Shown here: positions 27,771-44,720 of the stretch, piece after piece
How the letters are laid out: every line of letters begins with the position of its first letter
Numbering within the stretch: position 1 is the stretch's first letter
From: Escherichia phage phiWec179
Reading direction: 5' to 3' (one strand)
Length of the DNA: 64,000 nt
Sequence record: LC739533.1
Program-made: the position numbers and the translations under genes
The notes under the pieces: generated by a model
Seen by the model: only the letters and a program-made list of their open reading frames with translations
What the model was told of the DNA's origin: nothing
Database searches by the model: none

Positions 27771-27994
27771 TGGCAACAACATTCTATTTTGAAGGTAGTG
27801 AGAAAAAGACTTCCATTACCTTTCAAAGGGGTACACCAGCAGAAGATTTCTTATGGATGATAATCGATCATCTGAAAAGCGAAGGTATTCACCATATAGA
27901 CGAGTATTTCGCAGAGTCTACGGACTGGCAAAGCGTTGTTATGGAAGATGTTATTTTCGAACTACACCATATTATTAAGGAGGAGGGAATTTGA
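27770..27994 (+). CDS. Hypothetical protein
   Basis: Start at ATG 27770 overlapping upstream stop. Confidence 0.4.
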   Translation: MATTFYFEGSEKKTSITFQRGTPAEDFLWMIIDHLKSEGIHHIDEYFAESTDWQSVVMEDVIFELHHIIKEEGI

Positions 27995-29106
27995 AACAGA
28001 CTAATCAGACACTTTACGGTAAAGACTCAAATGGTAAACTGAAGCAATGGACTGTTTTCACAGACGGGGCAACAGTTACCGTAGCTCACGGTAAAGTTGG
28101 TGGGAAGATTACACAAAAATCATACGAGGCAGAAGCTAAAAACACTGGACGTGCAAATGCAACCACTCCAGAAGAACAAGCTGAAGCTGAAGCTTTTGCC
28201 AAATGGACTAAGCAACTGAAGAATGGTTATTATAAAACCACGGAAGAAGCAGAGAACCATGTTCCATCTACACCAATGAAATGCCAGGACTATAAAGATT
28301 TTGCGCATAAGGTGGTCTTCCCTGGGTATGCACAATACAAACTGAATGGCTTACGTTCAATGATCAACATGAAGGGCGAATGTTTGTCTAAAGCTGGAGA
28401 AGTTTACAAACTCCCTCCGCACTGGCAAGGTATTCCAAACTTCATCAGCGAAGTTGTTGGTCATCCTCTGGATGGGGAAGTGTTCGCTGGTCTTGGTGTT
28501 CTTAGTTTGCAACAGATCAACAGCGCATGGAAAAAGCACAATGAGAATACACCGCTCCTCAACTATTATGTTTACGATGTTCCTGTGGCAGATATGCCAT
28601 TTGAGAAGCGTGTTGAAGTATTAGCGGCTCTTAAAGCTGTAGCCGAAGATAACGGTTTGGACGAACTGATCTGTGTCGTACATACAGAGTATATTGAAAA
28701 TCAAGAACAGTTGGATGCATTTTATGCTAAAGCTTTACTTGAAAAAGCTGAAGGTATCGTGTATCGTAATGCTCATGGTGTCTATGAGTTTGATAAACGT
28801 TCCTATGACGTGATCAAACGAAAACCGCGCCAGACTTTGGAAGTTAAAGTTATTTCTATGCGTTCTGATAAAAATAACGATGGGGTGTTGACAGGTGAGA
28901 TGGAGAATGGTAAACTTGTTGAGTTCTTGATGCGAAAAGATGCTCACGAAACTATCAACTACCGTAAAGCAGAGAATGCCGAAACTTTGATTGGTCAGTT
29001 TGTTGAGATCGAGTATGAAGAATTTTCTGATGAAGGTATCCCAACTAAACCAGTCGGTGTACGTCTTCGTAAAATGATCCCAGGGACTTGGGAGCCAGCA
29101 GAGTAA
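27991..29106 (+). CDS. ATP-dependent DNA ligase-like nucleotidyltransferase
   Basis: Motif I-like KLNGLR, motif III-like LDGEVFA, motif IV EGIVYR, motif V VIKRK in correct order; apparent TTG start after AGGAGG RBS. Confidence 0.55.
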   Translation: MKQTNQTLYGKDSNGKLKQWTVFTDGATVTVAHGKVGGKITQKSYEAEAKNTGRANATTPEEQAEAEAFAKWTKQLKNGYYKTTEEAENHVPSTPMKCQDYKDFAHKVVFPGYAQYKLNGLRSMINMKGECLSKAGEVYKLPPHWQGIPNFISEVVGHPLDGEVFAGLGVLSLQQINSAWKKHNENTPLLNYYVYDVPVADMPFEKRVEVLAALKAVAEDNGLDELICVVHTEYIENQEQLDAFYAKALLEKAEGIVYRNAHGVYEFDKRSYDVIKRKPRQTLEVKVISMRSDKNNDGVLTGEMENGKLVEFLMRKDAHETINYRKAENAETLIGQFVEIEYEEFSDEGIPTKPVGVRLRKMIPGTWEPAE

Positions 29107-29116
29107 AGGAGGTTGT

Positions 29117-29305
29117 ATGTTGATTTTAACAGTGTATATCTTGTTGTCAGTATTGGCTGTATGCTGTATGTTCCTTAGCTGTTGCAAAGATAAGACACTT
29201 TTAGTCTCTGTAGCAAAAACTATAGATGCGATAATGGCGGGTATCGGGTACGCAGCAGTGATCTACATTTTCTGTTTTTACTTTGTGGCTGAATGGGTTA
29301 ATTAA
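29117..29305 (+). CDS. Small membrane protein
   Basis: 62 aa, almost entirely hydrophobic helices. Confidence 0.45.
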   Translation: MLILTVYILLSVLAVCCMFLSCCKDKTLLVSVAKTIDAIMAGIGYAAVIYIFCFYFVAEWVN

Positions 29306-29314
29306 GGGGGATTT

Positions 29315-29503
29315 ATGGGTGTTGAAGTTTTTCTGATTCTTTTGTTGCTTTCTATTGTGGCTTGTGGTATTATTATGGCTTCTACATTCCCATTAAACAC
29401 TTGGTGGCGAAAATTAAGTCTGATGCTTATATACTGTGCAGCAGGTGCACAAATGGGTTCGGTTGTTATCTACTTGACTGAACTCGCAAAAAATTATTTT
29501 TAA
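29315..29503 (+). CDS. Small membrane protein
   Basis: 62 aa, two predicted hydrophobic helices. Confidence 0.45.
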   Translation: MGVEVFLILLLLSIVACGIIMASTFPLNTWWRKLSLMLIYCAAGAQMGSVVIYLTELAKNYF

Positions 29504-29516
29504 TAAGGAGAACAAG

Positions 29517-30245
29517 ATGATCGAGAACTTTTTTAAAGAGATTAAGGTAGATGTGGACTTCTATAAGAAAGCAGCTAAACATGTAATTGATTGGAATGCA
29601 AAAGCGCGTGGCGGAGAACAGCCGGAATTTGACCAGGCGATGTTTGTTTCCCAGATCGGGTTTGTTCGTGAAGAACTGAAAGAGTATGAAGAAGCCGCTA
29701 AAACTAATGATCACGTTGAACTCTTGGATGCAGCCGCCGATGTATTCGTTGTTTCCAGTTACCTGGTGTACATGTTCTTTGGTGAAGAAGCCACTCTGAA
29801 GTTCCTTGAGAATCAGGTTGGTACTGTCTTCACAGAAACAATCTACACCGATTTCGACAATATGGAAGCTACCTTCACTGATCCTGTTCAGATGGCAGTA
29901 TTGAGTGCTGGTATTATGAACCTTGCGCGTGATACGCTGGTGCGTTCTGTTTATGCAGACAAAAAGATTATGAAAGAAGTTCTTGACAGTAATGATTCTA
30001 AGTACCCTACTAAGAAGCAACTGTTGGCTGTATGGAATACTTCCGATATTGATCTTGCAATTTCACAAGAATGCGCAGCGATTGAAGAGCGTAATGCCAA
30101 TCGTCCTGAAGGTGCTTACACTGGCGTACATGCTACGTACAATGAAAAACAGAAAGTTTATGTGTTCTTTGATGATAAAGGTAAGATCATGAAGCCTTCT
30201 ACCTTTGTTAAACCTGATATTGCAAAAATCATTGCTAAGAAATAA
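29517..30245 (+). CDS. MazG-like nucleotide pyrophosphohydrolase (tentative)
   Basis: REELKEYEEA ... LLDAAADVF acidic helix pair resembling the MazG EExxE...D motif. Confidence 0.4.
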   Translation: MIENFFKEIKVDVDFYKKAAKHVIDWNAKARGGEQPEFDQAMFVSQIGFVREELKEYEEAAKTNDHVELLDAAADVFVVSSYLVYMFFGEEATLKFLENQVGTVFTETIYTDFDNMEATFTDPVQMAVLSAGIMNLARDTLVRSVYADKKIMKEVLDSNDSKYPTKKQLLAVWNTSDIDLAISQECAAIEERNANRPEGAYTGVHATYNEKQKVYVFFDDKGKIMKPSTFVKPDIAKIIAKK

Positions 30246-30251
30246 TCTGTA

Positions 30252-30277
30252 AGCCGCCCTTCGGGGCGGTTATTGTG
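30252..30277 (+). terminator. Rho-independent terminator (weak T-run)
   Basis: CCGCCC-TTCG-GGGCGG hairpin followed by TTATTGT. Confidence 0.4.
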
Positions 30278-30302
30278 AGAGTTAAATAATAGGAGGAAAT
30301 AT

Positions 30303-31181
30303 ATGTTCGTTAAATCTTTTAAATCTGCACTTCCGATGGTTGCTGGTGATAATGCTTCTGTAGCGTCTCTGAACGAGTTCAACGAATTTCCGATTGACTT
30401 TGTACCTGCTGAAGGATCTCAAGCCCATACTATTGGTCTGGTTCGTTTTGAAGATGACGGGAAATACGTAAAAGAGTTCTCCGATCTGGAACTCCTTCAG
30501 GTTGGTCAATCTGTCAAGAAAGTTGACAAGAAGAAAGTTAAACGTCTTCTTAATGAACGCCTGGAAGAAATTCGAGTAGATATGGAAAGCCAGGGTCAAG
30601 AATTCTTTGTCGCTAAAGAAGACATGAAAGCCCTGAAAGCTGATATTGAATTTGGTCTGCTTCCAGAAACTGAACCAGAAGATTTCTTCAATTATGTAGT
30701 TCTGGATAAAACAACCAACCTGTTCTATGTGATCAACGGCAGTAAGAAAGTAGCGGAAGCTATTACTTCCTTCTTCCGTAATGTTTTAGGGACTTTCCCT
30801 TCTGTAGGCTTTAGTGTTCACGAAGAAGCGATTATCAAAGGTTTTGGTACATTGCTGAAAGAACACGAAGCTGATCGCCTTACTCTTGGCAACTATATTA
30901 AACTGGAAGATAGTGAAGGTGTTGTTGTCTGGACGAAAGAATCTCTTTACGATTCCAAAGCAATCGAACTTAAAGAAGACGGTAAAGATGTTGTCGCTAT
31001 TGGCTTGGAGTACGATGGTGTGCTGGAGTTTGTAGTAGATAAAGAGTTGAAGTTGAGTAAGCTTCGTTTCCCTAAATACTTCAACGATGACGAAGGTTCT
31101 ATTGAAGCATCTACTCTACTTTGCTTCAACGAGATTCGTGGTTTGATGGCAGATCTGACGAAAGCAACTATTCTTAAATAA
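30303..31181 (+). CDS. Hypothetical protein (RdgC-like size and pattern, tentative)
   Basis: 292 aa; weak resemblance to recombination-associated RdgC; not verified. Confidence 0.3.
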   Translation: MFVKSFKSALPMVAGDNASVASLNEFNEFPIDFVPAEGSQAHTIGLVRFEDDGKYVKEFSDLELLQVGQSVKKVDKKKVKRLLNERLEEIRVDMESQGQEFFVAKEDMKALKADIEFGLLPETEPEDFFNYVVLDKTTNLFYVINGSKKVAEAITSFFRNVLGTFPSVGFSVHEEAIIKGFGTLLKEHEADRLTLGNYIKLEDSEGVVVWTKESLYDSKAIELKEDGKDVVAIGLEYDGVLEFVVDKELKLSKLRFPKYFNDDEGSIEASTLLCFNEIRGLMADLTKATILK

Positions 31182-31185
31182 GTGC

Positions 31186-31214
31186 TTGACTTGCAGACTT
31201 CATTGTGATACTAT
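31186..31214 (+). promoter_or_regulatory. Sigma70-like promoter
   Basis: TTGACT -35, 17-nt spacer, TACTAT -10. Confidence 0.5.
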
Positions 31215-31243
31215 GCCTACCTACTCAACGAGGTAGGCTTTTA
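31215..31243 (+). terminator. Hairpin with T-run overlapping promoter-proximal leader
   Basis: GCCTACCT-ACTCAACG-AGGTAGGC then TTTT; may terminate upstream transcripts or structure the leader. Confidence 0.4.
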
Positions 31244-31252
31244 GGAGGTGTT

Positions 31253-31462
31253 ATGAAAAAGACAATTGCAGCGTTACTGTTGGCAACAAGTTTCTCGGCA
31301 GCGGCTGGACAAACTACTCTCATTCTTTCGGATGAGGAAGTTAGCGGAAATACTAAATATTGTTTCTATTCCAACTCCATCTACGACAAAGTTATCCAGA
31401 TCTCTGCGAGTCGGCAATGTCCTTACACAAAAACATTCAGTACGGATGATGACGATGAATAA
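31253..31462 (+). CDS. Small secreted protein with signal peptide
   Basis: MKKTIAALLLATSFSAAAG signal-peptide-like N-terminus, two Cys, acidic C-terminus DDDDE; RBS AGGAGG. Confidence 0.5.
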   Translation: MKKTIAALLLATSFSAAAGQTTLILSDEEVSGNTKYCFYSNSIYDKVIQISASRQCPYTKTFSTDDDDE

Positions 31463-31506
31463 TAGGGGGAATTATCAGCGGGTACATTTTAATAAAACCG
31501 GAAGAT

Positions 31507-32598
31507 TTGCACAAGTATGTTGACCTAAACACTGTTGTGGTTATTGACTACGATCAGGTTGCTTTCCAAGCGGCTTCTGCTGTAGAGAAGCGTCGTATCT
31601 TGGCTAAACATGCAGCCTCCGGTTCCGAAAAAGAATTTGACAATAAGACAGAGTTTTGGGGTAAGAGTAAGACTGAAATTGGTGGTTGGCTTGGAGCATT
31701 GAATGCTAAACGAGAAGAGCAGGGTAAACGTCCTTTCACCAAAGAAGAGTTTGAAATTATTGATGTGCAATACGTACCAGACACTTTGTCACATGCTTTT
31801 CAAGCAGCTAAAACAAAAGTTCAAGCGATCTTAAAGCATTTAAGTTTAGAAAAATATTGCGGAGTTATCGGTGTAGGGAAAACCTTCCGACATGATTTTA
31901 AGATGCCTACCGAATATAAATCTGAACGATCTGACATTAAGCCTTTACAACTATCCGATACCAAAGACTACTTGGTAGAGCAACACAATGGGGATGTTGT
32001 TACGGTTATCGAAGCCGATGATGAATTAGAGAAGTACGGTTTCCAAGGCTACAAAGATTACAAACGCACAGGCAAATTCTCTTACATCCTGGCGTCAATA
32101 GATAAAGACAGCCTATCCACTCCAAGCATCCTCTTTAACTTCTACAAAGAAGACGGTGTATTCAAGAATCCCGATATCATTCTGATAGACGAGTCCATTG
32201 GAGATTTGTGGATTGTTGAGAAGGGCAAGAAAAAAGAGGTTAAGGGTTGGGGATCTTTCTGGTTGGCCTATCAGATGCTGATGGGAGATAAAACGGATAG
32301 CATCCGTCCTTACCAGGATTTTGGTATTAAGTTTGGAGATGTTTCTTGTTTCAACTTGATATCTGAATGCAAGACCCAAGCTGAACTTTTCCAGAAAGTG
32401 AAAGATACATTTTATACCTGGTTCCCTGAAGGTGTTAAATTTACATCTTGGGATGGGGAAGCAGTAGAATTAACAACCGATCAATGGATCGAGACAATAT
32501 TCCAACTCGTTTACATGAAACGTTGGGATAACGATAACACAACTTTTGAGAGTATGCTTCAAGCGTACATTTCACAACAGGAGATAATTAATGAGTAA
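31507..32598 (+). CDS. 5'-3' exonuclease / flap endonuclease-like (tentative)
   Basis: N-terminal VVVIDYDQVAFQAA resembles FEN/PIN motif; LMGDKTDSIRPYQDFGIKFGDV resembles H3TH LxGDxxDNIPG..GIG; apparent TTG start. Confidence 0.45.
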   Translation: MHKYVDLNTVVVIDYDQVAFQAASAVEKRRILAKHAASGSEKEFDNKTEFWGKSKTEIGGWLGALNAKREEQGKRPFTKEEFEIIDVQYVPDTLSHAFQAAKTKVQAILKHLSLEKYCGVIGVGKTFRHDFKMPTEYKSERSDIKPLQLSDTKDYLVEQHNGDVVTVIEADDELEKYGFQGYKDYKRTGKFSYILASIDKDSLSTPSILFNFYKEDGVFKNPDIILIDESIGDLWIVEKGKKKEVKGWGSFWLAYQMLMGDKTDSIRPYQDFGIKFGDVSCFNLISECKTQAELFQKVKDTFYTWFPEGVKFTSWDGEAVELTTDQWIETIFQLVYMKRWDNDNTTFESMLQAYISQQEIINE

Positions 32599-33556
32599 AT
32601 TAACAACAGAGCAGAAAGTAGAAATCATTAGCCTTAAAACACAAGGTCTTTCTTCTCGCCAGATCGCTGCATTAGTTCTCGGTAGCGCGACAAAGAAAAG
32701 CACAGTGAACGATTTCTTGGTTCGTGAAAACTCTGCCAATGCTGGAACTCCTAAAGTTAAACCAGAAGGTCCAGTAGTTAAAATTATTGACGTTGAAACA
32801 GCACCAGAAATTGCGTATACTTTCCGTCGATTCAAAGCTTTTATCTCTCCTGATCAGGTGATTCGCCGTGGTTACTTGCTGTCCTACTCTTCCGCAGATC
32901 TGCGTACTGCTGAAGTTGAAGGTAAGAACTTGGCAAGCTACCCTCTGTTCGATATTGATCACACAGACGATTGGGAACTGTGTCAAGACATTTGGAAGCT
33001 TCTGGATGAAGCTGATATCGTTGTAGCTCACAACGGTGTTAAATTTGACCGTGCTTATATTAACCAGCGTTTCGCATACCACGGAATGGTTCCTCCGTCG
33101 AACTATGTTGTGGTCGATACTCTGAAAGCGGCTAAGAAACAATTCTTCTTACCGTCTAATTCTCTGAAAGAGATGGGTGCTTACTTCGAAACAGAGAGCG
33201 AAAAACTTGATAACGAAGGGTTCCCATTGTGGAAGGCTTGTTGTGAAGGTGATCGTGATGCGTTTGAACGTATGCAAACTTACAACGATGGTGATGTAGT
33301 TTCTCTGCGAGATCTGTACATTAAGATTCTGGCATGGATTCCGCAACATCCTAACGTATCTGCTTACTACGAAGATACCAAAGTTCGTTGCTCTCGTTGT
33401 GGCAGTGCACATGTGAATGTACTGGCAGATAAGAAGTACCACACAGCAGTAAGTTCTTTTGATATTATTCGTTGTGAAGATTGTGGTGGACTTTCTCGTG
33501 GACGTGTTAACAGCCGTTCCAAAGATAAGATGAAAAACACCATTGTAGGGATTTAA
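32591..33556 (+). CDS. DEDDh-type 3'-5' exonuclease with N-terminal HTH and C-terminal zinc ribbon
   Basis: IIDVETAPE (Exo I), VVAHNGVKFDRAYI (Exo II), YNDGDV (Exo III); C-terminal CSRCG ... CEDCGG. Confidence 0.55.
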   Translation: MSKLTTEQKVEIISLKTQGLSSRQIAALVLGSATKKSTVNDFLVRENSANAGTPKVKPEGPVVKIIDVETAPEIAYTFRRFKAFISPDQVIRRGYLLSYSSADLRTAEVEGKNLASYPLFDIDHTDDWELCQDIWKLLDEADIVVAHNGVKFDRAYINQRFAYHGMVPPSNYVVVDTLKAAKKQFFLPSNSLKEMGAYFETESEKLDNEGFPLWKACCEGDRDAFERMQTYNDGDVVSLRDLYIKILAWIPQHPNVSAYYEDTKVRCSRCGSAHVNVLADKKYHTAVSSFDIIRCEDCGGLSRGRVNSRSKDKMKNTIVGI

Positions 33557-33561
33557 TAAGA

Positions 33562-33590
33562 AAGGGGCTTCGGCCCCTTTTTTAATTTAA
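33562..33590 (+). terminator. Rho-independent terminator
   Basis: AGGGGC-TTCG-GCCCCT hairpin followed by TTTTTTAATTT. Confidence 0.7.
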
Positions 33591-33593
33591 GTG

Positions 33594-33622
33594 TTGACAT
33601 AGAGAACCAAGTGCGATACAAT
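33594..33622 (+). promoter_or_regulatory. Near-consensus sigma70 promoter
   Basis: TTGACA -35, 17-nt spacer, TACAAT -10. Confidence 0.6.
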
Positions 33623-33664
33623 CTTTATCAAGAAGGCATATCGCCTTAACAAGAGGAGACTATC

Positions 33665-34123
33665 ATGAGTAAGAATATTATTGTTTTTCGTAACGCTGCT
33701 GATTTCCGTAATTATGCCGCAGAATCTGGTCGTAACAATGCAGCCCGTGCTTTGTATCGTCAGTTCTTACGTTTAAATAATCTGGAGCGTAACGAGCTAA
33801 TCCAGGATTCCTCTGGTTTGACAGTAGGGAAAGATAACCGTCAACAAGTACTTATCGGAGGTTGCCTGTACGGTGTGTCTGTGAACGATAAAGGTGATTG
33901 TCGTCAGTACGACACTGACTATGTTGGTCTGATTAATATCTCCCCGACTACAGGCAGAGTTCTACTGGCATTCACTAACGATTTATCTTTACACAAGAAA
34001 CCAAACTTGATCCGCACAAAAGGAAACAATGCATCTTATAACGCTGCTCTTAGCAAAGATGCTTCTGTAGAGCTTGAAAACTTTAAAATCTGGGATAACA
34101 CCACTCCAGAACAAAATTACTAA
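33665..34123 (+). CDS. Hypothetical protein
   Basis: 152 aa; first gene after strong promoter; RBS GAGGAG. Confidence 0.45.
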   Translation: MSKNIIVFRNAADFRNYAAESGRNNAARALYRQFLRLNNLERNELIQDSSGLTVGKDNRQQVLIGGCLYGVSVNDKGDCRQYDTDYVGLINISPTTGRVLLAFTNDLSLHKKPNLIRTKGNNASYNAALSKDASVELENFKIWDNTTPEQNY

Positions 34124-34132
34124 GGAGGTTGA

Positions 34133-34360
34133 ATGAGCATTACATTAACAGGTAATGAAATTTTTGAATTATTTGAAATGTTGGGTATGAACTACTCAAT
34201 CGAAAAAGATCCAGAATTATTGGACGTTAGCATCACCGTCTTAGAAGACAAAGAACTTCTTGATGATAATGGTAACGTTATGTACAAAGGTCGTGTAGCT
34301 TTCTATACAGATTACCCTGAAGAGGGTGGAGTTGGAATCCAGGAGGAAAATTATGTCTAA
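34133..34360 (+). CDS. Hypothetical acidic protein
   Basis: 75 aa; RBS AAGGAGG. Confidence 0.45.
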   Translation: MSITLTGNEIFELFEMLGMNYSIEKDPELLDVSITVLEDKELLDDNGNVMYKGRVAFYTDYPEEGGVGIQEENYV

Positions 34361-34751
34361 TGCATTTAATGATCAAGTTGACGGACACCATTACACAGAT
34401 ATGGTAATGCAACCTATAGAGTTGGCTTATCTTGTAGGTGGCACACCTTGTTTCTGCAAGCTTGCTAAATACTCTACTCGTGTCAAGGGTGATCGCATGA
34501 TCAACTTGGACAAAGCTATTCATTGCATCGCGCTGGAAGCTACCATGATGGAAAACCATAGTTTCATGGTACAGGAAAACTACCCAGCAGCCACAAGTAA
34601 GGCCAAAACTGATCAAGCCATGTTACTGATTGACTTCTTCACAAAAGATCCGTTAATCCGCGAAGCTTTGAAGTGTATGTATTGTTCTTACTACCAAGAT
34701 GCAATGATGGCTATCCGAAAACTTAAGGAACAAATTAGTAATGGCGAATAA
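34353..34751 (+). CDS. Hypothetical protein
   Basis: Start at ATG 34353 after RBS AGGAGGA. Confidence 0.4.
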   Translation: MSNAFNDQVDGHHYTDMVMQPIELAYLVGGTPCFCKLAKYSTRVKGDRMINLDKAIHCIALEATMMENHSFMVQENYPAATSKAKTDQAMLLIDFFTKDPLIREALKCMYCSYYQDAMMAIRKLKEQISNGE

Positions 34752-34932
34752 CACAAAACAGTACGGAGAAGGTGAGGTTTATAAAATTTATAACCGTAAA
34801 GGGGATAAGCTTTTAGTAACTATCACCATCCCAGAAAATATGTGCAAGGCAGGTTTGGATCGCCTGTTGTTCTTTAAACACAATATTCCACCTGGTGAAT
34901 ACACAATCAAGAAGGTGCCAATTGTCAAGTAA
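34741..34932 (+). CDS. Hypothetical protein
   Basis: 63 aa; overlapping start. Confidence 0.4.
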   Translation: MANNTKQYGEGEVYKIYNRKGDKLLVTITIPENMCKAGLDRLLFFKHNIPPGEYTIKKVPIVK

Positions 34933-34945
34933 AGAACCAAAAATA

Positions 34946-35500
34946 ATGTGGGGCGAAGGAACGCCCTGGAAGTCACAAGCAGAGTTTTACACTTATCTTC
35001 GTGGCTGTCTTCGTCAGGCTTGGATGCGTCACCCTAACAAAATCAAACTCCTGAATGCAAAACGATACAAAGCGGATCGTCTTGACAAAGATGGTAAGGT
35101 GATGTTAGATAAGAAGACTGGCTTACCGAAACAGGTTTGGCATTGTTCTTGTGAAGTGTGCGGATACACTGGAGGTATGAAAGACTTCCAAGTGGATCAT
35201 ATCCATGCAGCAAAAAACTTGCAATGTTTTGATGACATTCCTATGTTCGTTCTACGTCTGATTTATGTCAATGTGGAAGACTTACGTATGGTTTGTAAAT
35301 CTTGTAACTCTATCTTAGCTTACGCTGACAAGCAGGGCATTTCTTTCGAACAAGCAAAAGTTGAGAAAGAAGCTATTGCGATCTGCAAAGATAAGCAAGA
35401 TAAGAAATGGTTAACGAAACGAGGTATCGAACCAGCAAGTACCGTAGCAAAACGAAGAGAACAAATAGTCAAAATCCTATTGCAGGAAATCGAAAGTTAG
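34946..35500 (+). CDS. HNH / endonuclease VII-like His-Me finger nuclease (tentative)
   Basis: WHCSCEVCG ... QVDHIHA ... VCKSCNS follows the CxxC-DH-CxxCN pattern of T4 endoVII/HNH nucleases. Confidence 0.4.
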   Translation: MWGEGTPWKSQAEFYTYLRGCLRQAWMRHPNKIKLLNAKRYKADRLDKDGKVMLDKKTGLPKQVWHCSCEVCGYTGGMKDFQVDHIHAAKNLQCFDDIPMFVLRLIYVNVEDLRMVCKSCNSILAYADKQGISFEQAKVEKEAIAICKDKQDKKWLTKRGIEPASTVAKRREQIVKILLQEIES

Positions 35501-35534
35501 GTTAATATAACAATACTGGAAGAGAGGAGGGATT

Positions 35535-36152
35535 ATGAAGATAGTTTGTGATTGGGATCTGGTGGTTGCTCCACTGGATGTTGCTTGGCTGGAATGGTTG
35601 GTTAAAGTTAGTGGAGATTGTGTAGGCTTCTCCGAAGCTGTCAAGAATGTTGACTACGATCTTACTAAATACTTCCCAGGTTTCCGTGAGAAGTTTAACA
35701 TCGATCCTTACGGCTTTCTGGATAATCCCCATCTCTATGACACGATGGGATGTATCAAACCTATGGCTGACTTCTTAGAAGGTATTGTGAAAGAGGGCGA
35801 TAATGCACTTATTGCAAGTGTGACTAAAGGTGGACACCTTAGCTCAAAACACAAACATGTTTTAAGAACTTTGCCAACCATTGATTTTGGTAAAGGTTCT
35901 GGTAACGGTTTCTTTGCCACAAAAGAAAAATACCTGTTGCCTTGTGATATTGCCATAGATGATAGGGCAGAAAACCTGTTGTATTTTCCAGATCATGTTG
36001 TTAAGATTTATTACAATACGATGTATAAAGATTTGTATTTGGAAGAATTAAAAAAGAAACCAAACGTAGTTGTCACGGGTTTGTACAATCAAGCAGAAAC
36101 CTGTTGGCAGGTTTATTCAATGTTAAAAGAACGAGGAGAAATTAATGTCTAA
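35535..36152 (+). CDS. HAD-superfamily hydrolase, possible 5'-deoxynucleotidase
   Basis: N-terminal CDWDLVV (DxDxV motif I-like) and downstream IDD motif; located just upstream of thyX. Confidence 0.35.
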   Translation: MKIVCDWDLVVAPLDVAWLEWLVKVSGDCVGFSEAVKNVDYDLTKYFPGFREKFNIDPYGFLDNPHLYDTMGCIKPMADFLEGIVKEGDNALIASVTKGGHLSSKHKHVLRTLPTIDFGKGSGNGFFATKEKYLLPCDIAIDDRAENLLYFPDHVVKIYYNTMYKDLYLEELKKKPNVVVTGLYNQAETCWQVYSMLKERGEINV

Positions 36153-37134
36153 TATCAGTGCACAAGTCATCGCCCAATCCATCAACGAAGAAGGACAGAT
36201 GATCACAACTTTCGAACTGGAATATCCACGCATCATCCATTCGGAACTGATGACACACCGCCTATTCTCCCGAAACGCTGCTTCAAGCCGCGCTATTCCC
36301 GTCAAGACTTTGATTGAGATGGTTCGCAACGAACCTGCGGCACCTGTTCGATTTGGTCAACACCAACCTGGGATGCAGGATCAAGGTGTAGAGTATGATG
36401 CTCTCATTGGGGTAGGTTATTCGAGTCGTGAGTGGTGGAATTTAGCTGCACTTAGTGCGGCAAACTTTGCAGAACAAATGGCGGAAGCTGGTTACGCGAA
36501 GCAGGTTTGTAATCGCCTTCTTGAACCATTCCAAAAAATGAAGACGGTTCTGACAGCAACCGAATATGAAAACTTCTGGTGGCTACGTGATGATGCTGAT
36601 GCTGATCCGACTATTGAAGCTTTAGCCAAAATTATGTTTGAAGCCTATGAAGCTTCTACTCCAGAACTACTGGCTCCAGGTCAATGGCATACGCCTTACG
36701 TAGATCATGTCTACGAGAACATTGGTTTGGAAGGTGATGATGTTTGGGTATTCAGTGGGTATAGCACTACAGATGAAAATGGCAATACTATCATGCTGTC
36801 GCTGGAAGAAGCACTTGCAATCTCTTCTTCTTGTTGCGCACAAGTGAGCTATCGTCGTCTGAATGCAACTAAAGATAAAGCTTTGGACATTTATGGACGT
36901 TTGCTTACCGGACGTAAAGTTCACGCTTCCCCTTTTGAACATCAGGCAACCCCAATGAAAAAAATGGATTTGTCAGGCTTAAAACGACAGGAGCATGGTG
37001 TTAATATTCCTCCGTTCCCGATTTCTTGGGAACCAGGCGTTACTCATGTAGATCGTAATGGTCAATTCTGGTCGGGGAATATGAAGGGTTGGGTACAACA
37101 TCGTCAACTTTTAGACAATCATACTAAATGGTGA
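36145..37134 (+). CDS. thyX: Flavin-dependent thymidylate synthase ThyX
   Basis: ThyX signature THRLFSRNAASSRAIP (RHR...SxR). Confidence 0.8.
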   Translation: MSNISAQVIAQSINEEGQMITTFELEYPRIIHSELMTHRLFSRNAASSRAIPVKTLIEMVRNEPAAPVRFGQHQPGMQDQGVEYDALIGVGYSSREWWNLAALSAANFAEQMAEAGYAKQVCNRLLEPFQKMKTVLTATEYENFWWLRDDADADPTIEALAKIMFEAYEASTPELLAPGQWHTPYVDHVYENIGLEGDDVWVFSGYSTTDENGNTIMLSLEEALAISSSCCAQVSYRRLNATKDKALDIYGRLLTGRKVHASPFEHQATPMKKMDLSGLKRQEHGVNIPPFPISWEPGVTHVDRNGQFWSGNMKGWVQHRQLLDNHTKW

Positions 37135-37150
37135 TTCGAGTAAATTCTTA

Positions 37151-37180
37151 TTGACTTTAGTGTTAGATTTAGTGTAGTAT
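37151..37180 (+). promoter_or_regulatory. Sigma70-like promoter
   Basis: TTGACT -35, 18-nt spacer, TAGTAT -10; followed by leader hairpin GGGGG...CCCCC. Confidence 0.4.
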
Positions 37181-37230
37181 AGCAAAACGTTGGGGGAGGT
37201 GAGATTCCCCCTTTATAAAAGGAGAAAATT

Positions 37231-37641
37231 ATGTCATTAGTAAACACTACCACTTGGGCTACCGTGAGCATGTCTACCGTTAAGTCTACCCCGATCTGGA
37301 AGCAAGAGTCAGAAAAATACCGTGGTCATATTCCTCACGATCGTCACGCAGATGTACTTCGTGCCGCTCTGGTGTTCCTTGGTATGAACGAAGATGGCAA
37401 CTTCTCTGTTGAACGTAATGTTAACATTCGTAGTAACAACGACAACAGTTTGGTTTATATCAACACAACTCTTTATACTTTTGCTGTTAAAGAAAGCTGT
37501 CCTTTCAAACATATCTACCAAAAGAATGATATTTTTCATTACGGAGATGAAGAGTTTGGCGGTTGGGGTGTGACCCACACAAAAATGGATGATTTCGGTA
37601 ATTCCTATGATCCTGCGAGAGCAGAAGATAATTCACTTTAA
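37231..37641 (+). CDS. Hypothetical protein
   Basis: 136 aa; RBS AAAAGGAG. Confidence 0.45.
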   Translation: MSLVNTTTWATVSMSTVKSTPIWKQESEKYRGHIPHDRHADVLRAALVFLGMNEDGNFSVERNVNIRSNNDNSLVYINTTLYTFAVKESCPFKHIYQKNDIFHYGDEEFGGWGVTHTKMDDFGNSYDPARAEDNSL

Positions 37642-37651
37642 GAGAGGGATA

Positions 37652-37897
37652 ATGACCGATAATAAATACGAAGGCTGTGAGATTGAAGTTTACTTTGATG
37701 AGACAGTAGGCTGTAATGTTACAGTTATTTTAGATACTTCCAAACGCTTATCACCAAAACGACAGGAAGCAGATCGCAAAGCTAAAGCGAAAGGTTTCCA
37801 TGATATAAATCATTTTGAAGGGTTCCTTTATGCGAACGGGCTGTTTAACGAAATGAAATTTGGATACGATGTAGACGTGCTTGGGATTCATAGTTAA
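37652..37897 (+). CDS. Hypothetical protein
   Basis: Start moved to ATG 37652 after RBS AGAGGGA. Confidence 0.4.
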   Translation: MTDNKYEGCEIEVYFDETVGCNVTVILDTSKRLSPKRQEADRKAKAKGFHDINHFEGFLYANGLFNEMKFGYDVDVLGIHS

Positions 37898-37911
37898 TAT
37901 AGGGAGGAGAA

Positions 37912-40152
37912 GTGATTCGATACGTTACTAAATCAAATGGTAAGACAGAAGAGTTCAATCCTGAAAAACTGCGTAAATGGTCTGAATTTGCAGCAGGGAA
38001 ACTGAACTGGTCGGAAATTGAATTAGAAGCTGTGAAACGTTGTTACGATGGTGTGTCTACTCGTGATTTACATAAAGCTATGATCGCTGCGTGTATTGAT
38101 AAGAAGACTCAAGCGTACAGTGATATGGCAGGTCGATTGCTTCTCGGTATGATTTACAAACAGGCTCACGGGGGATACCACAGTATCCCTTCCCTGTACA
38201 CTTTCTACCAAGATATGGTGAAGCGTGGACATTGGGCCAAGATGGACTATACCGAAGAAGAAATCAAAGAGATTGGTAAGATTGTCAAACATAACAAGAA
38301 TCTAACCTACGGTTATTCTGTTCTTCGTCAGATGGCGGATAAATACTTGGTTCGTGATGCTGTGAATGATGTTGTTCACGAGTCACCGCAATTCCTGTTT
38401 ATTGGTGTGGCAATGCGTGTTATGGAGATCCAGCCTAAAGATCGTCGTATCAACGATATCAAAAAGCTGTACACATACGTAAGTGATCTTCAGATTAACT
38501 TACCATCTCCTTATCTGACAACGTTACGTACTCCGATCAAAGGTAGCGCGTCTTGTTGTTTATTCCGTGCAGACGATACAGCAGAGTCTTTGGCTATTGC
38601 AAACTATCTGGCACACGAATATACGTTGAATAATGCAGGGATTGGTGTTAACCTCCAAACTCGTGCAACTGGACAGGGTGTTAAGAACAACCGTATCGTT
38701 CATGGTGGTCTTCTCCCTTACCTCAAGTGGATGGAAGATAGCGTAGGAGCTTCTAAACAAGCGAGTCGTGGAGGTAGTGCAACGGTTACGTTCACAATCT
38801 TGGAGCCAGATTTTGAAGATCTGATTCGACTGAAGAACCCAACCACTCCGATCGATAAGCGTGTTGATAAGCTGGATTACTCTGTTGTTGTAAACCGCTC
38901 CTTCCTTCGCCGTGCGGCTAAAGGTGAAGAGTGGATGCTTGTGAGCTGTGACGAAGCACCGGAACTTTACGAAGCATTGTACAAAAGTGAAGAAGAGTTC
39001 GATGCGGTCTACGATAAAGTTAGTCGCCGTCGCATCAAAAAGAAAATTGTTAAGGCTCGTGACCTGTTGACTGAAATCATTGTTCAACGTGCAGAAACTG
39101 GACGTATTTATATGTTCTTCGCTGACAACGTAAACAATCACAGTCCTTTCCTGGATACTGTGTATCAGTCAAACTTATGTCAGGAGATCTTTTTACCTAC
39201 TAAAGCGTTCCATAAAATGACGGATCTCTTTACTGGTGAAAACACAGAAGATCAAGAATTGGCTTTATGCTTCTTGTCCTCTATTGTTGCTGGGCGCGTT
39301 ACGCCGGAGCAATATGAAGATGTTGCGTATTATACTGTATTGACGATTGATAACGTTATTGAGACGATGGAATATCCGTTCAAACATAACGAGATCACAG
39401 CTAAGGCTCGCCGCTCTATCGGCGTAGGTATTACAAACCTTGCACATTACTTGGCAAGCAACTTTGTAACCTATTCTGATCCTTATGCGAAGAAGCTGAT
39501 GCATGAATTAGCAGAACGTCATTACTTCTGGTTGGCACAAGCCTCTCTGCGCTTGGCGAAAGAGAAAGGTAATGCCGAGTGGATGGATAAAACTAAGTGG
39601 CCTCAAGGTTGGCTCCCTATTGACACCTACGCTAAAGCAGTAGATACTATTGGGGACTTTGAACTGAAGCTGGATTGGGAAGGCTTACGTGCTGGTATCA
39701 TTGAACAAGGTGGTATCCGTAACAGTGTGCTTGCAGCAGTGGCCCCGAACGAATCAAGTAGCTTGGTGAGTAATACGACCAACTCACTCTACCCTGTACG
39801 TGACACGATCATGTACAAACAGAGTCAGAAAGGTAACGTACTGTTTATCGTACCAGATTACGAAAAACTGAAAATGTTCTATCAGTCGGCGTGGGATACC
39901 CCGTCTAAAGATATTGCCGAGATGTATGGACTCTTCACTAAGTTTACGGATCAGGGTATCTCCTGTGATGCTTGGTTAGATTATTCCAAAATGGAAGGTG
40001 GACGTTTATCAGTGAAAGCCGAGATGCAATTTATCTTAACATTTGCAAAGCTTGGTGGTAAATCTCTTTACTACCTGAACAGCCGAACCAAATCAGCGGA
40101 ATCTATGGCCCAAGAAGATTCTGATGGTGGTTGTGAAGCTTGTAAAATGTAG
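37912..40152 (+). CDS. nrdA: Ribonucleoside-diphosphate reductase alpha subunit (class I)
   Basis: 746 aa; N-terminal ATP-cone (IRYVTKSNGKTEEFNPEKL), paired with adjacent R2; GTG start after GGGAGGAG RBS. Confidence 0.85.
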   Translation: MIRYVTKSNGKTEEFNPEKLRKWSEFAAGKLNWSEIELEAVKRCYDGVSTRDLHKAMIAACIDKKTQAYSDMAGRLLLGMIYKQAHGGYHSIPSLYTFYQDMVKRGHWAKMDYTEEEIKEIGKIVKHNKNLTYGYSVLRQMADKYLVRDAVNDVVHESPQFLFIGVAMRVMEIQPKDRRINDIKKLYTYVSDLQINLPSPYLTTLRTPIKGSASCCLFRADDTAESLAIANYLAHEYTLNNAGIGVNLQTRATGQGVKNNRIVHGGLLPYLKWMEDSVGASKQASRGGSATVTFTILEPDFEDLIRLKNPTTPIDKRVDKLDYSVVVNRSFLRRAAKGEEWMLVSCDEAPELYEALYKSEEEFDAVYDKVSRRRIKKKIVKARDLLTEIIVQRAETGRIYMFFADNVNNHSPFLDTVYQSNLCQEIFLPTKAFHKMTDLFTGENTEDQELALCFLSSIVAGRVTPEQYEDVAYYTVLTIDNVIETMEYPFKHNEITAKARRSIGVGITNLAHYLASNFVTYSDPYAKKLMHELAERHYFWLAQASLRLAKEKGNAEWMDKTKWPQGWLPIDTYAKAVDTIGDFELKLDWEGLRAGIIEQGGIRNSVLAAVAPNESSSLVSNTTNSLYPVRDTIMYKQSQKGNVLFIVPDYEKLKMFYQSAWDTPSKDIAEMYGLFTKFTDQGISCDAWLDYSKMEGGRLSVKAEMQFILTFAKLGGKSLYYLNSRTKSAESMAQEDSDGGCEACKM

Positions 40153-40157
40153 CAATA

Positions 40158-40181
40158 CAGGGGCTTCGGCCCCTTTTTTAT
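40158..40181 (+). terminator. Rho-independent terminator after nrdA
   Basis: AGGGGC-TTCG-GCCCCT followed by TTTTTT. Confidence 0.65.
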
Positions 40182-40193
40182 TGAGGAGCGATT

Positions 40194-41958: not shown

Positions 41959-42274
41959 TATCGAATGGAAGATGGTGCAAGGCGCACCATATAAGAAATG
42001 GGAAGAAGTGTTTAAAGGCGATCCGCAGATTGAGGATCAATTCGATGGGGATTTCAACTGGTTTCTTTACGAAGGTATTGGGTTAGTGAGTGTCTCCCCG
42101 TGGTTTGATGCAGATCCTGAAGATTGTGTCTTTGGTATTGAACTTGCGTCAGGATGCAGCGCACGGGCAATAGATCTCACAAGCTTGGATAAAAAAGCAA
42201 ACGAGATCTATTTTGAACTGCTTAATAAGTATAATATTGAGACTGAAACGTTAGTATCACAAAACGTTTGGTAA
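41948..42274 (+). CDS. Hypothetical protein
   Basis: Start at ATG 41948 after RBS AGGAGGA. Confidence 0.4.
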   Translation: MGIDIEWKMVQGAPYKKWEEVFKGDPQIEDQFDGDFNWFLYEGIGLVSVSPWFDADPEDCVFGIELASGCSARAIDLTSLDKKANEIYFELLNKYNIETETLVSQNVW

Positions 42275-42283
42275 GGAGAACTA

Positions 42284-43276: not shown

Positions 43277-43284
43277 GGAGGGTT

Positions 43285-44163: not shown

Positions 44164-44720
44164 AAATAAAAGAATTAAGTATTCCTGGTCTGGTTGTCTT
44201 TAAACCTCAAGTTTACAAAGATGATCGTGGTTACTTCACGGAGACGTTTAACGAGAAGATTTACGAAGAGGTTATTGGCAAACAAACGTTTGTTCAGGAT
44301 AACCATTCATTCTCTACTTTAGGTGTTCTTCGCGGAATGCACTTTCAAGTAAACAATCCGCAAGGTAAGCTTGTACGTTGCACACGAGGTGAAGTTTTTG
44401 ACGTGGCTGTAGATCTTCGTGAAGGTAGTCCAACCTTCGGACAATGGGAAGGTGTGATTCTTAGTGGGCGTAACAATAAACAGTTTTGGATTCCACCTGG
44501 CTTTGCACATGGTTTTGTTGTAACCTCTTATGAAGCCAACTTTGAATACAAGTGCACCAACTACTACGATCCGGCATCTGAACGTAGTTTGTTGTGGAAC
44601 GATCCTACTGTGAATATTGATTGGGGTTTTGATATGATTTTCAATGATGAGAATTTTGTACCTATCATTTCGGAAAAGGATGCACAAGCTAAAACACTGA
44701 AGGAGCTTATGGAATCATGA
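44160..44720 (+). CDS. rmlC: dTDP-4-dehydrorhamnose 3,5-epimerase
   Basis: Cupin-type RmlC pattern ([11 protein letters not shown] ... GMHFQ ... [10 protein letters not shown]). Confidence 0.85.

What the first reader, a model, noticed from the sequence alone, without database searches (positions are those of the whole stretch)
31186..31462. Strong promoter driving a small secreted protein in the middle of replication genes
A good sigma70 promoter (TTGACT-17-TACTAT) and strong RBS precede a 69-aa ORF with a classic signal-peptide-like N-terminus, two Cys and a poly-Asp tail. A periplasmic protein among cytoplasmic DNA-metabolism genes suggests a role in superinfection exclusion or blocking a receptor or cell-wall process.
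Basis: partly seen in the sequence, partly recalled or inferred. Interest (0 to 1): 0.4.

Follow-up and report, generated by a model that had tools for sequence, protein, structure and literature searches.

The report
Conserved small exported phage protein
This is a real, conserved phage gene for a tiny protein that is almost certainly exported to the bacterial periplasm, sitting first in an operon with two DNA-exonuclease genes; its function is unknown and blocking of later phage infections is plausible but untested.

Summary
In a phiWec181-type Stephanstirmvirinae coliphage, a TG-extended sigma-70-like promoter (31186-31214) and an AGGAGG ribosome-binding site precede a 69-aa ORF (31253-31462). 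The ORF has a Sec-type signal peptide (predicted cleavage AAA|GQ), two invariant Cys and a DDDDE tail.

The gene is under purifying selection (dN/dS about 0.1). It sits between rdgC and an exonuclease gene in the nine Stephanstirmvirinae-type lineages examined, and the family is detected in roughly 250 rV5/phi92-type phage records. It belongs to phrog_4641 (unknown function). The phi92 record already carries a SignalP signal-peptide feature on the ortholog, gp086.

AlphaFold2 gives a confident four-strand beta domain with no solved relative. There is no Pfam, NCBIfam or PADLOC match.

New points:
- The promoter most likely drives three genes (small ORF, exonuclease, DNA polymerase exonuclease subunit) up to a strong terminator at 33561-33583.
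- A covarying hairpin starts directly after the -10 element and probably ends the rdgC transcript.
- The exonuclease gene seems to start at a conserved ATT/ATC codon 12 nt after the small ORF's stop.
- Homologs lie beside a small recombinase in Enterobacterales islands, and as tandem arrays in other bacteria.

Function is unproven. A periplasmic exclusion or envelope role is the best guess (about 0.3). A protease-inhibitor lead was not replicated.

The parts
31186..31191 (+). -35 hexamer TTGACT of a sigma-70-type promoter
   Evidence: Read and listed. TTGACTT is invariant in 7 lineages and TTGACA is at the same place in 2 more.
31206..31214 (+). TG-extended -10 element (TGaTACTAT), 17-nt spacer from the -35
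   Evidence: (flagged TG_before_second = yes). A TAnnnT hexamer preceded by TG is conserved in orthologous intergenic regions.
31215..31242 (+). GC-rich hairpin GCCTACCT-N8-AGGTAGGC followed by TTTT, starting at the first base after the -10. It is probably the (weak) terminator or 3' stabiliser of the upstream rdgC transcript. Transcripts from the promoter itself should start inside its 5' arm.
   Evidence: It is unique in the window, with 0 matches expected by chance. Folding energy is -13.9 kcal/mol, z = -3.9. Other lineages keep a hairpin at the same place with different stem sequences: GCCCTTC/GAAGGGC, GCCCTTCA/TGAGGGGC, and U-A to U-G to C-G changes. The T-run has only 4 T, so the terminator scan did not call it.
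31243..31248 (+). Shine-Dalgarno AGGAGG, 4 nt before the ATG
   Evidence: GGAG or GAGG is conserved at this position in the orthologs.
31253..31462 (+). CDS of the 69-aa precursor (stop included); member of phrog_4641
   Evidence: E = 1.4e-22. Annotated as a hypothetical protein in phiWec181, PsgM04F, phAPEC8 (gp142) and phi92 (gp086). dN/dS is about 0.1.
31253..31306 (+). Sec (signal peptidase I) signal peptide, residues 1-18, predicted cleavage AAA|GQ
   Evidence: The n-, h- and c-regions and the -3/-1 rule are met in all 7 orthologs, and there is no lipobox. The phi92 record carries a SignalP feature on the ortholog. AlphaFold2 pLDDT is 50-62 for residues 1-20.
31307..31459 (+). Mature 51-aa acidic protein (5.8 kDa, pI 4.2): a four-strand beta domain with Cys37/Cys56 (31361-63, 31418-20) and the C-terminal DDDDE tail (31445-31459)
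   Evidence: AlphaFold2 pLDDT is 95-98 for residues 20-63, with strands at 20-31, 34-40, 45-51 and 59-63. Both Cys are invariant in alignment A1 and present in 81 of 92 single-domain representatives.
31464..31469 (+). Shine-Dalgarno AGGGGG of the downstream exonuclease gene, 2 nt after the small ORF's stop
   Evidence: AGGAGG or AGGGGG is at the same place in 10 lineages.
31474..32598 (+). Exonuclease gene (phrog_107), second cistron. Proposed true start is ATC 31474 (ATT in most relatives), not the annotated TTG at 31507.
   Evidence: The protein-level sequence (I)SG[YF]I.I.PEDL.KY.. is conserved upstream of every canonical start codon in 10 lineages. phrog_107 exonuclease match, E = 6.7e-56. 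The phi92 annotation notes 'No RBS identified; weak Prodigal statistics'.
32591..33556 (+). DNA polymerase exonuclease subunit (RNase H-like), third cistron; overlaps the exonuclease gene by 8 nt
   Evidence: (PF13482, E = 3.7e-9).
33561..33583 (+). Strong intrinsic terminator AAAGGGGCTTCGGCCCCTTTTTT that closes the transcription unit. A TTGACA-17-TACAAT promoter follows at 33594.
   Evidence: (repeat family D1).

Best explanation
Shown by sequence and comparison: the ORF at 31253-31462 is a genuine, conserved gene of rV5/phi92-type myophages. It encodes an 18-residue Sec signal peptide followed by a 51-residue acidic protein. That protein is a compact four-strand beta domain with two invariant cysteines and a flexible DDDDE tail.

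Inferred:
- Host RNA polymerase transcribes the gene early or in the middle period from the TG-extended sigma-70 promoter at 31186-31214.
- It is the first cistron of a three-gene unit (small ORF, exonuclease, DNA polymerase exonuclease subunit) ending at the terminator at 33561-33583.
- The hairpin directly after the -10 stops or stabilises rdgC read-through transcripts, but is not formed by transcripts that start at this promoter.
- After export and cleavage at AAA|GQ, DsbA is expected to form the Cys37-Cys56 disulfide.

Most likely mechanism (speculative): the mature protein acts in the periplasm as a stoichiometric binder of a conserved envelope or virion-delivery component. The rigid beta domain plus acidic tail would engage a basic surface. 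This would protect the infected cell's envelope, that is, exclude superinfecting phage or block premature wall damage, in the manner of T4 Spackle but with an unrelated fold.

My confidence by step: exported periplasmic protein about 0.9; three-gene operon about 0.75; exclusion or envelope-protection role about 0.3.
For: Gene reality and conservation:
- The window region is identical to phiWec181/186.
- Orthologs lie at the same position, rdgC - small ORF - exonuclease - polymerase exonuclease subunit, in phAPEC8, phi92, FKP3, Tr1, KP13-16 and three metagenomic lineages.
- tblastn detects the family in 144-149 Stephanstirmvirinae-type records and 107 Vequintavirinae-type records.
- dN/dS is about 0.1, and the mature part is 73% identical to phi92 compared with 66% for RdgC.

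Export:
- Signal peptide features and the aligned cleavage site are conserved.
- The phi92 record carries a SignalP feature on gp086.
- Family-wide, 83/92 representatives have a hydrophobic N-terminus and 81/92 have both Cys.

Fold: AlphaFold2 pLDDT is 95-98 over residues 20-63.

Promoter and operon: conserved promoter. No + strand terminator lies before 33561, and only 12 nt separate the small ORF's stop from the exonuclease start region.

Hints toward a carrier-cell or envelope role:
- Four distinct homologs (P0152, P0169, P0166, P0167) in Enterobacter and Pantoea genomes and related metagenomic contigs always lie directly downstream of a 186-202 aa tyrosine recombinase. That position is at the end of a capsid-gene-carrying integrative island, away from any DNA-metabolism genes.
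- T4 Spackle sets a precedent: an early, signal-peptide-bearing, disulfide-bonded small periplasmic protein that binds a basic patch of the tail lysozyme (PMC7677548).
Against: There is no experimental datum and no homology to any known exclusion protein.
- Pfam, NCBIfam, PADLOC and the PDB sequence profile search give nothing.
- The gene evolves as slowly as core replication genes, unlike many host-interaction genes.
- The domain also occurs in non-phage bacterial proteins (Gemmatimonadetes, Erythrobacteraceae) as 2-3 tandem copies, so it is not phage-specific.
- The acidic tail is missing in the Vequintavirinae-type members, which end ...KTFH, so it cannot be the core functional element.
- No tail-associated lysozyme was identified in the structural module, though only annotation labels were inspected.
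- The transcription start site, promoter timing and terminator function are inferred, not measured. The T-run after the hairpin is short here and absent in FKP3 and Tr1.
Confidence: 0.3

Rival explanations
1. The protein is a periplasmic inhibitor or binder of a host envelope enzyme or structure (a muralytic enzyme, protease, nuclease such as endonuclease I, or peptidoglycan, LPS or cations). It would condition the envelope for the phage's own cycle rather than excluding other phages.
For: The export and fold evidence is the same as for the best explanation. Slow evolution fits a conserved host target. The domain also occurs as tandem secreted arrays in free-living bacteria, which suggests a generic binding module. 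Three bacterial homologs have a secreted protease gene (Trypsin_2, M48+PDZ, retropepsin-like) directly upstream.
Against: The protease association was not replicated. None of 26 upstream and 37 downstream neighbour ORFs from 66 metagenomic loci matched a peptidase family, and none of three further contexts did. There is no fold match to Ivy, MliC, PliC, PliG, PliI or ecotin-like inhibitors. No target has been identified.
Confidence: 0.25
2. The gene's conserved position mainly serves translation. The well-translated small ORF would deliver ribosomes to the weak ATT/ATC start of the exonuclease gene 12 nt downstream (translational coupling), with the peptide's own activity secondary.
For: In 10 lineages the exonuclease frame is conserved at protein level from an ATT (8 lineages) or ATC (2 lineages). 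That codon lies 4 nt after a strong Shine-Dalgarno sequence and 8-25 nt after the small ORF's stop, with no canonical start codon available. The synteny of small ORF then exonuclease holds in the nine Stephanstirmvirinae-type lineages examined. In the Erwinia Vequintavirinae phage the small ORF is separated from the exonuclease gene by two other ORFs.
Against: The mature protein is under purifying selection as strong as that on the enzymes around it, and both Cys are invariant. Homologs in integrative islands and in bacteria have no exonuclease downstream. The exonuclease gene has its own strong Shine-Dalgarno sequence.
Confidence: 0.1
3. The protein is a periplasmic lysis-timing regulator, an antiholin- or RI-like sensor, or a partner of the spanin or holin.
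For: It is a small periplasmic phage protein expressed before lysis. T4 RI and Spackle are precedents for periplasmic control of lysis (PMC7677548).
Against: It is not linked to the lysis genes; the Rz-like spanin lies about 10 kb away on the other side of the tRNA cluster. It is present in integrative islands with no lysis cassette seen nearby. It has no similarity to RI or RIII.
Confidence: 0.1
4. The N-terminal hydrophobic segment is an uncleaved membrane anchor, so the product is a small inner-membrane protein rather than a soluble periplasmic one.
For: Some relatives are annotated 'putative membrane protein'. KP13-16 has a longer hydrophobic stretch of about 17 residues.
Against: The hydrophobic core in the window protein is only about 11 residues and is followed by a canonical A-x-A site, which is conserved in alignment. 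SignalP 3.0 gave a cleavage probability of 1.000 for the phi92 ortholog.
Confidence: 0.05

Closest known systems
T4 Spackle (gp61.3), periplasmic superinfection-exclusion protein
   Same: Both are small phage proteins with a cleavable signal peptide and one disulfide. T4 Spackle is made early. It acts in the periplasm by binding a basic patch on the gp5 tail lysozyme (PMC7677548). From my own knowledge (Kai et al. 1999), T4 gene 61.3 likewise lies among replication genes.
   Different: Spackle is a 75-aa alpha-helical bundle. This protein is a 51-aa all-beta domain. There is no sequence or structural similarity. No target is known here, and no tail lysozyme was identified in the structural module.
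phi92 gp086 / phAPEC8 gp142 / phrog_4641 (unknown function)
   Same: These are direct orthologs: 65-71% identity, the same synteny, and a phrog_4641 match at E = 1.4e-22. The phi92 record already carries a SignalP signal-peptide feature on gp086.
   Different: There is no functional difference to report. The family has no assigned function, so membership explains nothing about mechanism.
Bacterial periplasmic lysozyme inhibitors (Ivy, MliC/PliC, PliG, PliI)
   Same: They are small, exported, mainly beta-sheet proteins that protect the wall from muramidases (summarised in PMC7677548).
Lipoprotein exclusion proteins (T5 Llp, Cor)
   Same: They are phage-encoded, exported and block reinfection at the envelope (10.1101/2022.06.28.497910, listed).
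   Different: Those are lipoproteins with a lipobox Cys. No lipobox is present here or in any of the 7 orthologs checked.
Pfam DUF1496
   Same: One source names an Enterobacter homolog (P0152) a 'DUF1496 domain-containing protein'.
   Different: The match is below threshold: 11.8 bits against a cut-off of 20.2, over only 14 residues. The window protein has no Pfam hit. The pOXA-48 DUF1496 protein described in the literature is a different protein with a mature mass of 10.2 kDa.

Membership tests
phrog_4641 (phage protein family, unknown function) | Significant match to the family profile over most of its length | tested here: met
   E = 1.4e-22, residues 3-63 against profile positions 3-68 of 68. 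The Erwinia and KP13-16 members also match.
Sec / signal peptidase I substrates | Positively charged n-region, hydrophobic h-region of 7-15 residues, small residues at -3 and -1, no lipobox | tested here: met
   MKK, then TIAALLLATSF, then AAA|GQ. The aligned site is conserved in 7 orthologs and no lipobox is present. The phi92 record carries a SignalP 3.0 annotation on the ortholog.
Sec / signal peptidase I substrates | Actual export and cleavage in the cell | not testable with these tools
   Needs fractionation, PhoA fusions or mass spectrometry.
T4 Spackle family | Sequence or structural homology to the alpha-helical bundle of Spackle | tested here: not met
T4 Spackle family | Binds and inhibits a tail-associated lysozyme and confers exclusion | not testable with these tools
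   No experiment was possible. No lysozyme label appears in the structural module of the close relative PsgM04F.
Lipoprotein exclusion proteins (Llp/Cor type) | Lipobox [LVI][ASTVI][GAS]C at the end of the signal peptide | tested here: not met
   No lipobox in the window protein or in 6 orthologs.
Periplasmic lysozyme inhibitors (Ivy, MliC/PliC, PliG, PliI) | Fold or profile similarity to one of these families | tested here: not met
Pfam DUF1496 | Score at or above the gathering threshold (20.2 bits) | tested here: not met
   The window protein has no hit. Enterobacter homologs score 11.8-12.7 bits.
Sigma-70 promoter with extended -10 | -35 and -10 hexamers with a 16-18 nt spacer and TG at -15/-14 | tested here: met
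   TTGACT, 17 nt, TACTAT with TG: 9/12 matches. Conserved in 9 lineages.
Sigma-70 promoter with extended -10 | Transcription start mapped about 7 nt downstream of the -10 | not testable with these tools
   Needs 5'-RACE or dRNA-seq.
Intrinsic (Rho-independent) terminator | GC-rich hairpin immediately followed by a U-run | tested here: inconclusive
   The hairpin is stable and covaries. Only 4 T follow it, so the scan did not call it. The T-run has 5 T in phAPEC8-type and L012, and is absent in FKP3 and Tr1.

The most novel reading that the evidence does not exclude
The gene would define an uncatalogued periplasmic mini-domain of about 45 aa, with one disulfide and the motif G-x-x-K-x-C-x-Y...C-P, absent from Pfam. 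The domain is shared by three settings: virulent rV5/phi92-type myophages, where it is a core gene; integrative capsid-carrying islands of Enterobacterales, where it always lies next to the recombinase; and free-living bacteria, where it occurs as tandem arrays. In the phages and islands it would act as a new structural class of superinfection-exclusion or envelope-protection effector. In addition, it would be translationally coupled to an exonuclease gene that uses a conserved non-canonical ATT/ATC start codon.
Probability: 0.25. Interest if true: 0.55.

Novelty: new variant of a known kind. Interest (0 to 1): 0.3.

Why it matters
Small exported phage proteins are the known route by which infected cells shut the door on further phage (T4 Spackle and Imm, T5 Llp). 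No such factor has been described for the rV5/phi92 group, which is widely used in phage therapy cocktails.

A core, slowly evolving, 5.8-kDa periplasmic protein with a confident but unmatched fold is a tractable candidate. It is easy to express, to delete, and to test for exclusion or for a periplasmic binding partner. If it does exclude other phages, it would affect how cocktails containing these phages behave.

The side observation of an ATT/ATC start on the downstream exonuclease gene would correct the annotation of that gene in every record inspected here. It also points to deliberately low or IF3-sensitive expression of a nuclease.

If none of this holds, the gene remains one more conserved hypothetical protein whose signal peptide had already been annotated.

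Tried and rejected
1. Known-family assignment. Pfam, NCBIfam, PADLOC and a PDB sequence profile search found nothing. PHROGs gave only an unknown-function family.

3. DUF1496 link. The link was suggested by a source name for P0152. The score is below threshold, and the DUF1496 protein in the literature is a different protein.

4. Protease-inhibitor idea. Three bacterial homologs sit directly downstream of secreted proteases of three different classes. The pattern was not replicated in three more contexts. It was also absent from 63 neighbour ORFs taken from 66 metagenomic loci. Rejected as a general association.

5. Repeated regulatory motif. The hairpin sequence occurs once in the window. The first promoter pattern search used the wrong spacer and was uninformative; it was replaced by a scored scan.

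6. Known RNA family in the leader. None found; the only hit was a sub-threshold snoRNA match inside rdgC.

7. Longer GTG start at 31205 (85 aa). Rejected. It lies inside the promoter, and all orthologs start at the MKK codon after the ribosome-binding site.

8. Literature on this family in phi92, phAPEC8, rV5 or Stephanstirmvirinae. No functional data were found. The rV5 paper only reports many sigma-70-like promoters, 11 of them with extended -10 regions.

9. A first genome-collection search with alignment A3 failed for lack of a conserved block and was redone with A4.
Full report
**Identity of the window.** Positions 30300-32600 are 100% identical to Escherichia phages phiWec181 and phiWec186. 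They are 97% identical to phiWec188, phiWec190 and 'Pseudomonas' phage PsgM04F, and 80% identical to a Phapecoctavirus. These phiWec phages were recently proposed as a new genus in the subfamily Stephanstirmvirinae (PMC12695924). In the window, a structural module lies on the minus strand (about 1-17 kb). It is followed by a tRNA cluster and then a long plus-strand block of early/middle genes rich in DNA metabolism.

**The observation.**
- TTGACT at 31186-31191, a 17-nt spacer, and TACTAT at 31209-31214, preceded by TG at 31206-07 (an extended -10).
- AGGAGG at 31243-48.
- ATG at 31253 and stop at 31460-62.
- A 69-aa product, MKKTIAALLLATSFSAAAGQTTLILSDEEVSGNTKYCFYSNSIYDKVIQISASRQCPYTKTFSTDDDDE.

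The promoter match by itself is not better than chance. The consensus scan finds 36 sites in 16 kb against 35.9 expected, and about 18 sites in the window score as well or better in a stricter scan.

Conservation gives the promoter weight. In alignments of the rdgC-to-small-ORF spacer, TTGACTT is invariant in seven lineages: the window, phAPEC8-type, phi92, FKP3, Tr1, KP13-16 and L011. TTGACA occupies the same place in two more. A TG-extended TAnnnT -10 follows with similar spacing, while the flanking bases diverge. The rV5 genome paper likewise reported 33 sigma-70-like promoters across that genome, 11 of them with extended -10 regions (PMC3606486).

**The gene is real.**
- It is annotated, always as hypothetical, in every related record: phiWec181 BDU12568, phAPEC8 gp142 and phi92 gp086.
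- Against the phAPEC8-type and phi92 orthologs, non-synonymous differences are 0.17-0.23 per site and synonymous differences 0.70-0.73. This gives dN/dS of about 0.09-0.12, the same range as rdgC, the NTP pyrophosphohydrolase, the ligase and the polymerase exonuclease subunit.
- The mature part is as well conserved as its neighbours: 73% identity to phi92, against 66% for RdgC and 63% for the pyrophosphohydrolase. The signal peptide is only 44-56% identical.
- tblastn finds the family in 144-149 Stephanstirmvirinae-type records. Seeding with the Erwinia member finds 107 Vequintavirinae-type records from Klebsiella, Cronobacter, Salmonella, Pectobacterium, Erwinia, Enterobacter and rV5-like coliphages.
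- The order rdgC, small ORF, exonuclease, polymerase exonuclease subunit is kept in every Stephanstirmvirinae-type lineage examined, including three metagenomic lineages only about 45-50% identical.
- It is therefore a core gene of this phage supergroup, not a recently acquired extra gene.

**Export.** The N-terminus has the three regions of a Sec signal peptide: MKK, then the hydrophobic TIAALLLATSF, then SAAA. The site A-A-A|G aligns with V-A-A|G, S-Y-A|G, A-K-A|G, A-V-A|G, S-R-A|T and A-N-A|T in orthologs. None has a lipobox. The phi92 GenBank record already carries a signal-peptide feature of 18 residues on gp086 (SignalP 3.0, probability 1.000).

The predicted mature protein has 51 residues, a mass of 5.8 kDa, a pI of 4.2 and two Cys. 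Both Cys are invariant in the nine-sequence alignment. Of 92 single-domain family representatives, 81 have both Cys and 83 have a hydrophobic N-terminal segment. Most of the exceptions look like truncated or frameshifted fragments. A conserved Cys pair in an exported protein points to a periplasmic disulfide. I could not measure the Cys-Cys distance in the model.

First, there is no plus-strand terminator between the small ORF and 33561. There a strong terminator, AAAGGGGCTTCGGCCCCTTTTTT, follows the polymerase exonuclease subunit gene and is immediately followed by a near-consensus promoter. The exonuclease coding region begins about 12 nt after the small ORF's stop, and the third gene overlaps the second by 8 nt. 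The promoter therefore most likely drives three genes, with the small ORF as first cistron.

Second, a stable hairpin (GCCTACCT-N8-AGGTAGGC, -13.9 kcal/mol, z = -3.9) begins at the very first base after the -10 hexamer and is followed by TTTT.
- The same arrangement recurs in other lineages with different stem sequences: GCCCTTC/GAAGGGC, GCCCTTCA/TGAGGGGC, and a U-A to U-G to C-G series. So the structure, not the sequence, is conserved.
- In KP13-16 the stem instead brackets the -10.
- A sigma-70 start about 7 nt after the -10 would fall inside the 5' arm. Transcripts from this promoter would then lack the hairpin, while read-through from rdgC would contain it.
- I read it as a compact terminator or 3'-end stabiliser of the rdgC transcript, overlapping the next promoter.
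- This is an inference. The T-run is short here and absent in FKP3 and Tr1, and the terminator scan did not call it.

**A wider family.** A profile search of 1.84 billion representative proteins found 135 relatives. They fall into three groups.

1. Single-domain phage forms.

2. Single-domain forms with an acidic tail in Enterobacter and Pantoea chromosomes and related metagenomic contigs.
- Four distinct variants, each 40-50% identical to phage orthologs, all lie directly downstream of a complete 186-202-aa tyrosine recombinase, and three overlap or abut it. The pair sits at the end of an island that carries a major-capsid (Phage_cap_E) gene.
- The islands are inserted at different chromosomal sites.
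- Here the gene has no DNA-metabolism neighbours.

3. Secreted proteins with two or three tandem copies of the domain (motif KTGExTTGMTKQCYY...LCPLSIQV), joined by Pro-rich linkers. They occur in Gemmatimonadetes, Erythrobacteraceae and other metagenome-assembled genomes.

The domain is thus a general exported module that phages and islands have taken up in single-copy form. The acidic tail is present in 33 of 92 single-domain representatives and is missing from the Vequintavirinae-type members. It is an accessory feature.

**A lead that failed.** In three bacterial contexts the gene directly upstream is a secreted protease, each of a different catalytic class: Trypsin_2, M48+PDZ and retropepsin-like. 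I tested this on three more contexts. I also tested 26 upstream and 37 downstream neighbour ORFs from 66 metagenomic loci. No peptidase family appeared. Neighbours are heterogeneous and often mobile-element genes. The protease-inhibitor idea is not supported as a general property.

**What it most likely does.**

Firm: it is a small, early- or middle-expressed, Sec-exported, disulfide-stabilised periplasmic protein, conserved as a core gene.

Speculative: its target. The closest functional analogue is T4 Spackle, an early, signal-peptide-bearing, disulfide-bonded 75-aa periplasmic protein. Spackle binds a basic patch of the tail lysozyme and contributes to superinfection exclusion (PMC7677548). 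From my own knowledge, its gene (61.3) also sits among replication genes. However, Spackle is an alpha-helical bundle, so this is analogy, not membership.

Points in favour of an exclusion or envelope-protection role:
- early-type promoter;
- periplasmic location;
- presence next to the recombinase in integrative islands, where a benefit to the carrier cell is plausible.

Points against:
- slow evolution;
- occurrence of the domain outside mobile elements;
- complete lack of experimental or homology support.

I put this role at about 0.3, a host-enzyme or structure binder serving the phage's own cycle at about 0.25, and the remaining alternatives lower.

**Side finding.** The downstream exonuclease gene (phrog_107) is annotated with different starts in different records. 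The starts are TTG 31507 here, a truncated 690-nt gene in phAPEC8, and 'No RBS identified; weak Prodigal statistics' in phi92. In ten lineages the reading frame is conserved at the protein level from 11-12 codons further upstream ((I)SG[YF]I.I.PEDL.KY...). No ATG, GTG or TTG is available there. Every lineage has a strong Shine-Dalgarno sequence, then 4 nt, then ATT (eight lineages) or ATC (the window at 31474, and FKP3). This suggests a conserved non-canonical start codon. Such a start would give low or IF3-sensitive translation, and could be coupled to translation of the small ORF. Coupling would also help explain why the two genes stay adjacent.

**Verdict.** The 'promoter for a small protein' is better described as the promoter of a three-gene operon. 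The proposed function remains an untested, reasonable guess. The gene itself and its signal peptide were already annotated (phi92 gp086). New here are the family's breadth, its unmatched fold, the promoter-hairpin arrangement and the probable ATT/ATC start next door. Interest is moderate to low (0.3).

Noticed in passing
window 31464-31510 (and L002, L004-L008, L011-L013): The exonuclease gene downstream of the small ORF appears to start at a non-canonical ATC (31474). The equivalent codon is ATT in eight other lineages and ATC in FKP3, in each case 4 nt after a strong Shine-Dalgarno sequence. Protein-level conservation extends 11-12 codons upstream of the annotated TTG (31507), and public annotations disagree on the start.
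   Followed up: partly
window 29117-29305 and 29315-29503 (+): Two adjacent 62-aa ORFs between the ligase and the NTP pyrophosphohydrolase encode very hydrophobic products (each looks like two transmembrane segments). Both are annotated as hypothetical proteins in PsgM04F. The small exported protein is therefore not the only envelope-directed product in this DNA-metabolism block.
   Followed up: no
window 3006-3043, 33549-33586, 40145-40182, 58913-58950: A family of near-identical strong terminator-like hairpins (GGGGC-TTCG/TACG-GCCCC plus a T-run) marks operon ends. The simple terminator scan run over 24000-40000 missed the 33561-33583 copy.
   Followed up: partly
L014-L018, L030, L031 (Enterobacter and Pantoea genomes and related metagenomic contigs): Homologs of the small protein always sit directly after a compact 186-202-aa tyrosine recombinase, overlapping or abutting it. 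The pair lies at the end of an island carrying a Phage_cap_E capsid gene. The islands are inserted at different chromosomal sites, and variable cargo follows (YecR, HNH, CbtA/CbeA, anti-restriction). They look like satellite-type elements but were not classified.
   Followed up: partly
L010, L020, L021: Three tandem-domain bacterial homologs lie directly downstream of secreted proteases of three different classes (retropepsin-like, M48+PDZ, Trypsin_2+Adhesin_E). The pattern was not seen in about 66 further contexts, so it may be chance or limited to one clade.
   Followed up: yes
public records OR584014.1, MG065650.1, MG065645.1, MG065689.1, OP562383.1: Records named as Pseudomonas, Campylobacter and Acinetobacter phages are 97% identical to, or clearly belong with, E. 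coli Stephanstirmvirinae phages. Their host labels look doubtful.
   Followed up: no
window about 42000-57500 (by correspondence with PsgM04F 80800-96900): The close relative's annotation lists several unusual genes in the same early block: a nucleotide-sugar pathway (two epimerases and a dTDP-4-dehydrorhamnose 3,5-epimerase), an HslV-like peptidase, a Sir2-like deacetylase, a DprA-like protein, and PhoH.
   Followed up: no
PP919962.1 (Klebsiella phage KP2025) 124169-124321: The ortholog of the small protein is labelled 'gram-negative pili assembly chaperone' in this record. No Pfam or fold evidence here supports that name.
   Followed up: no
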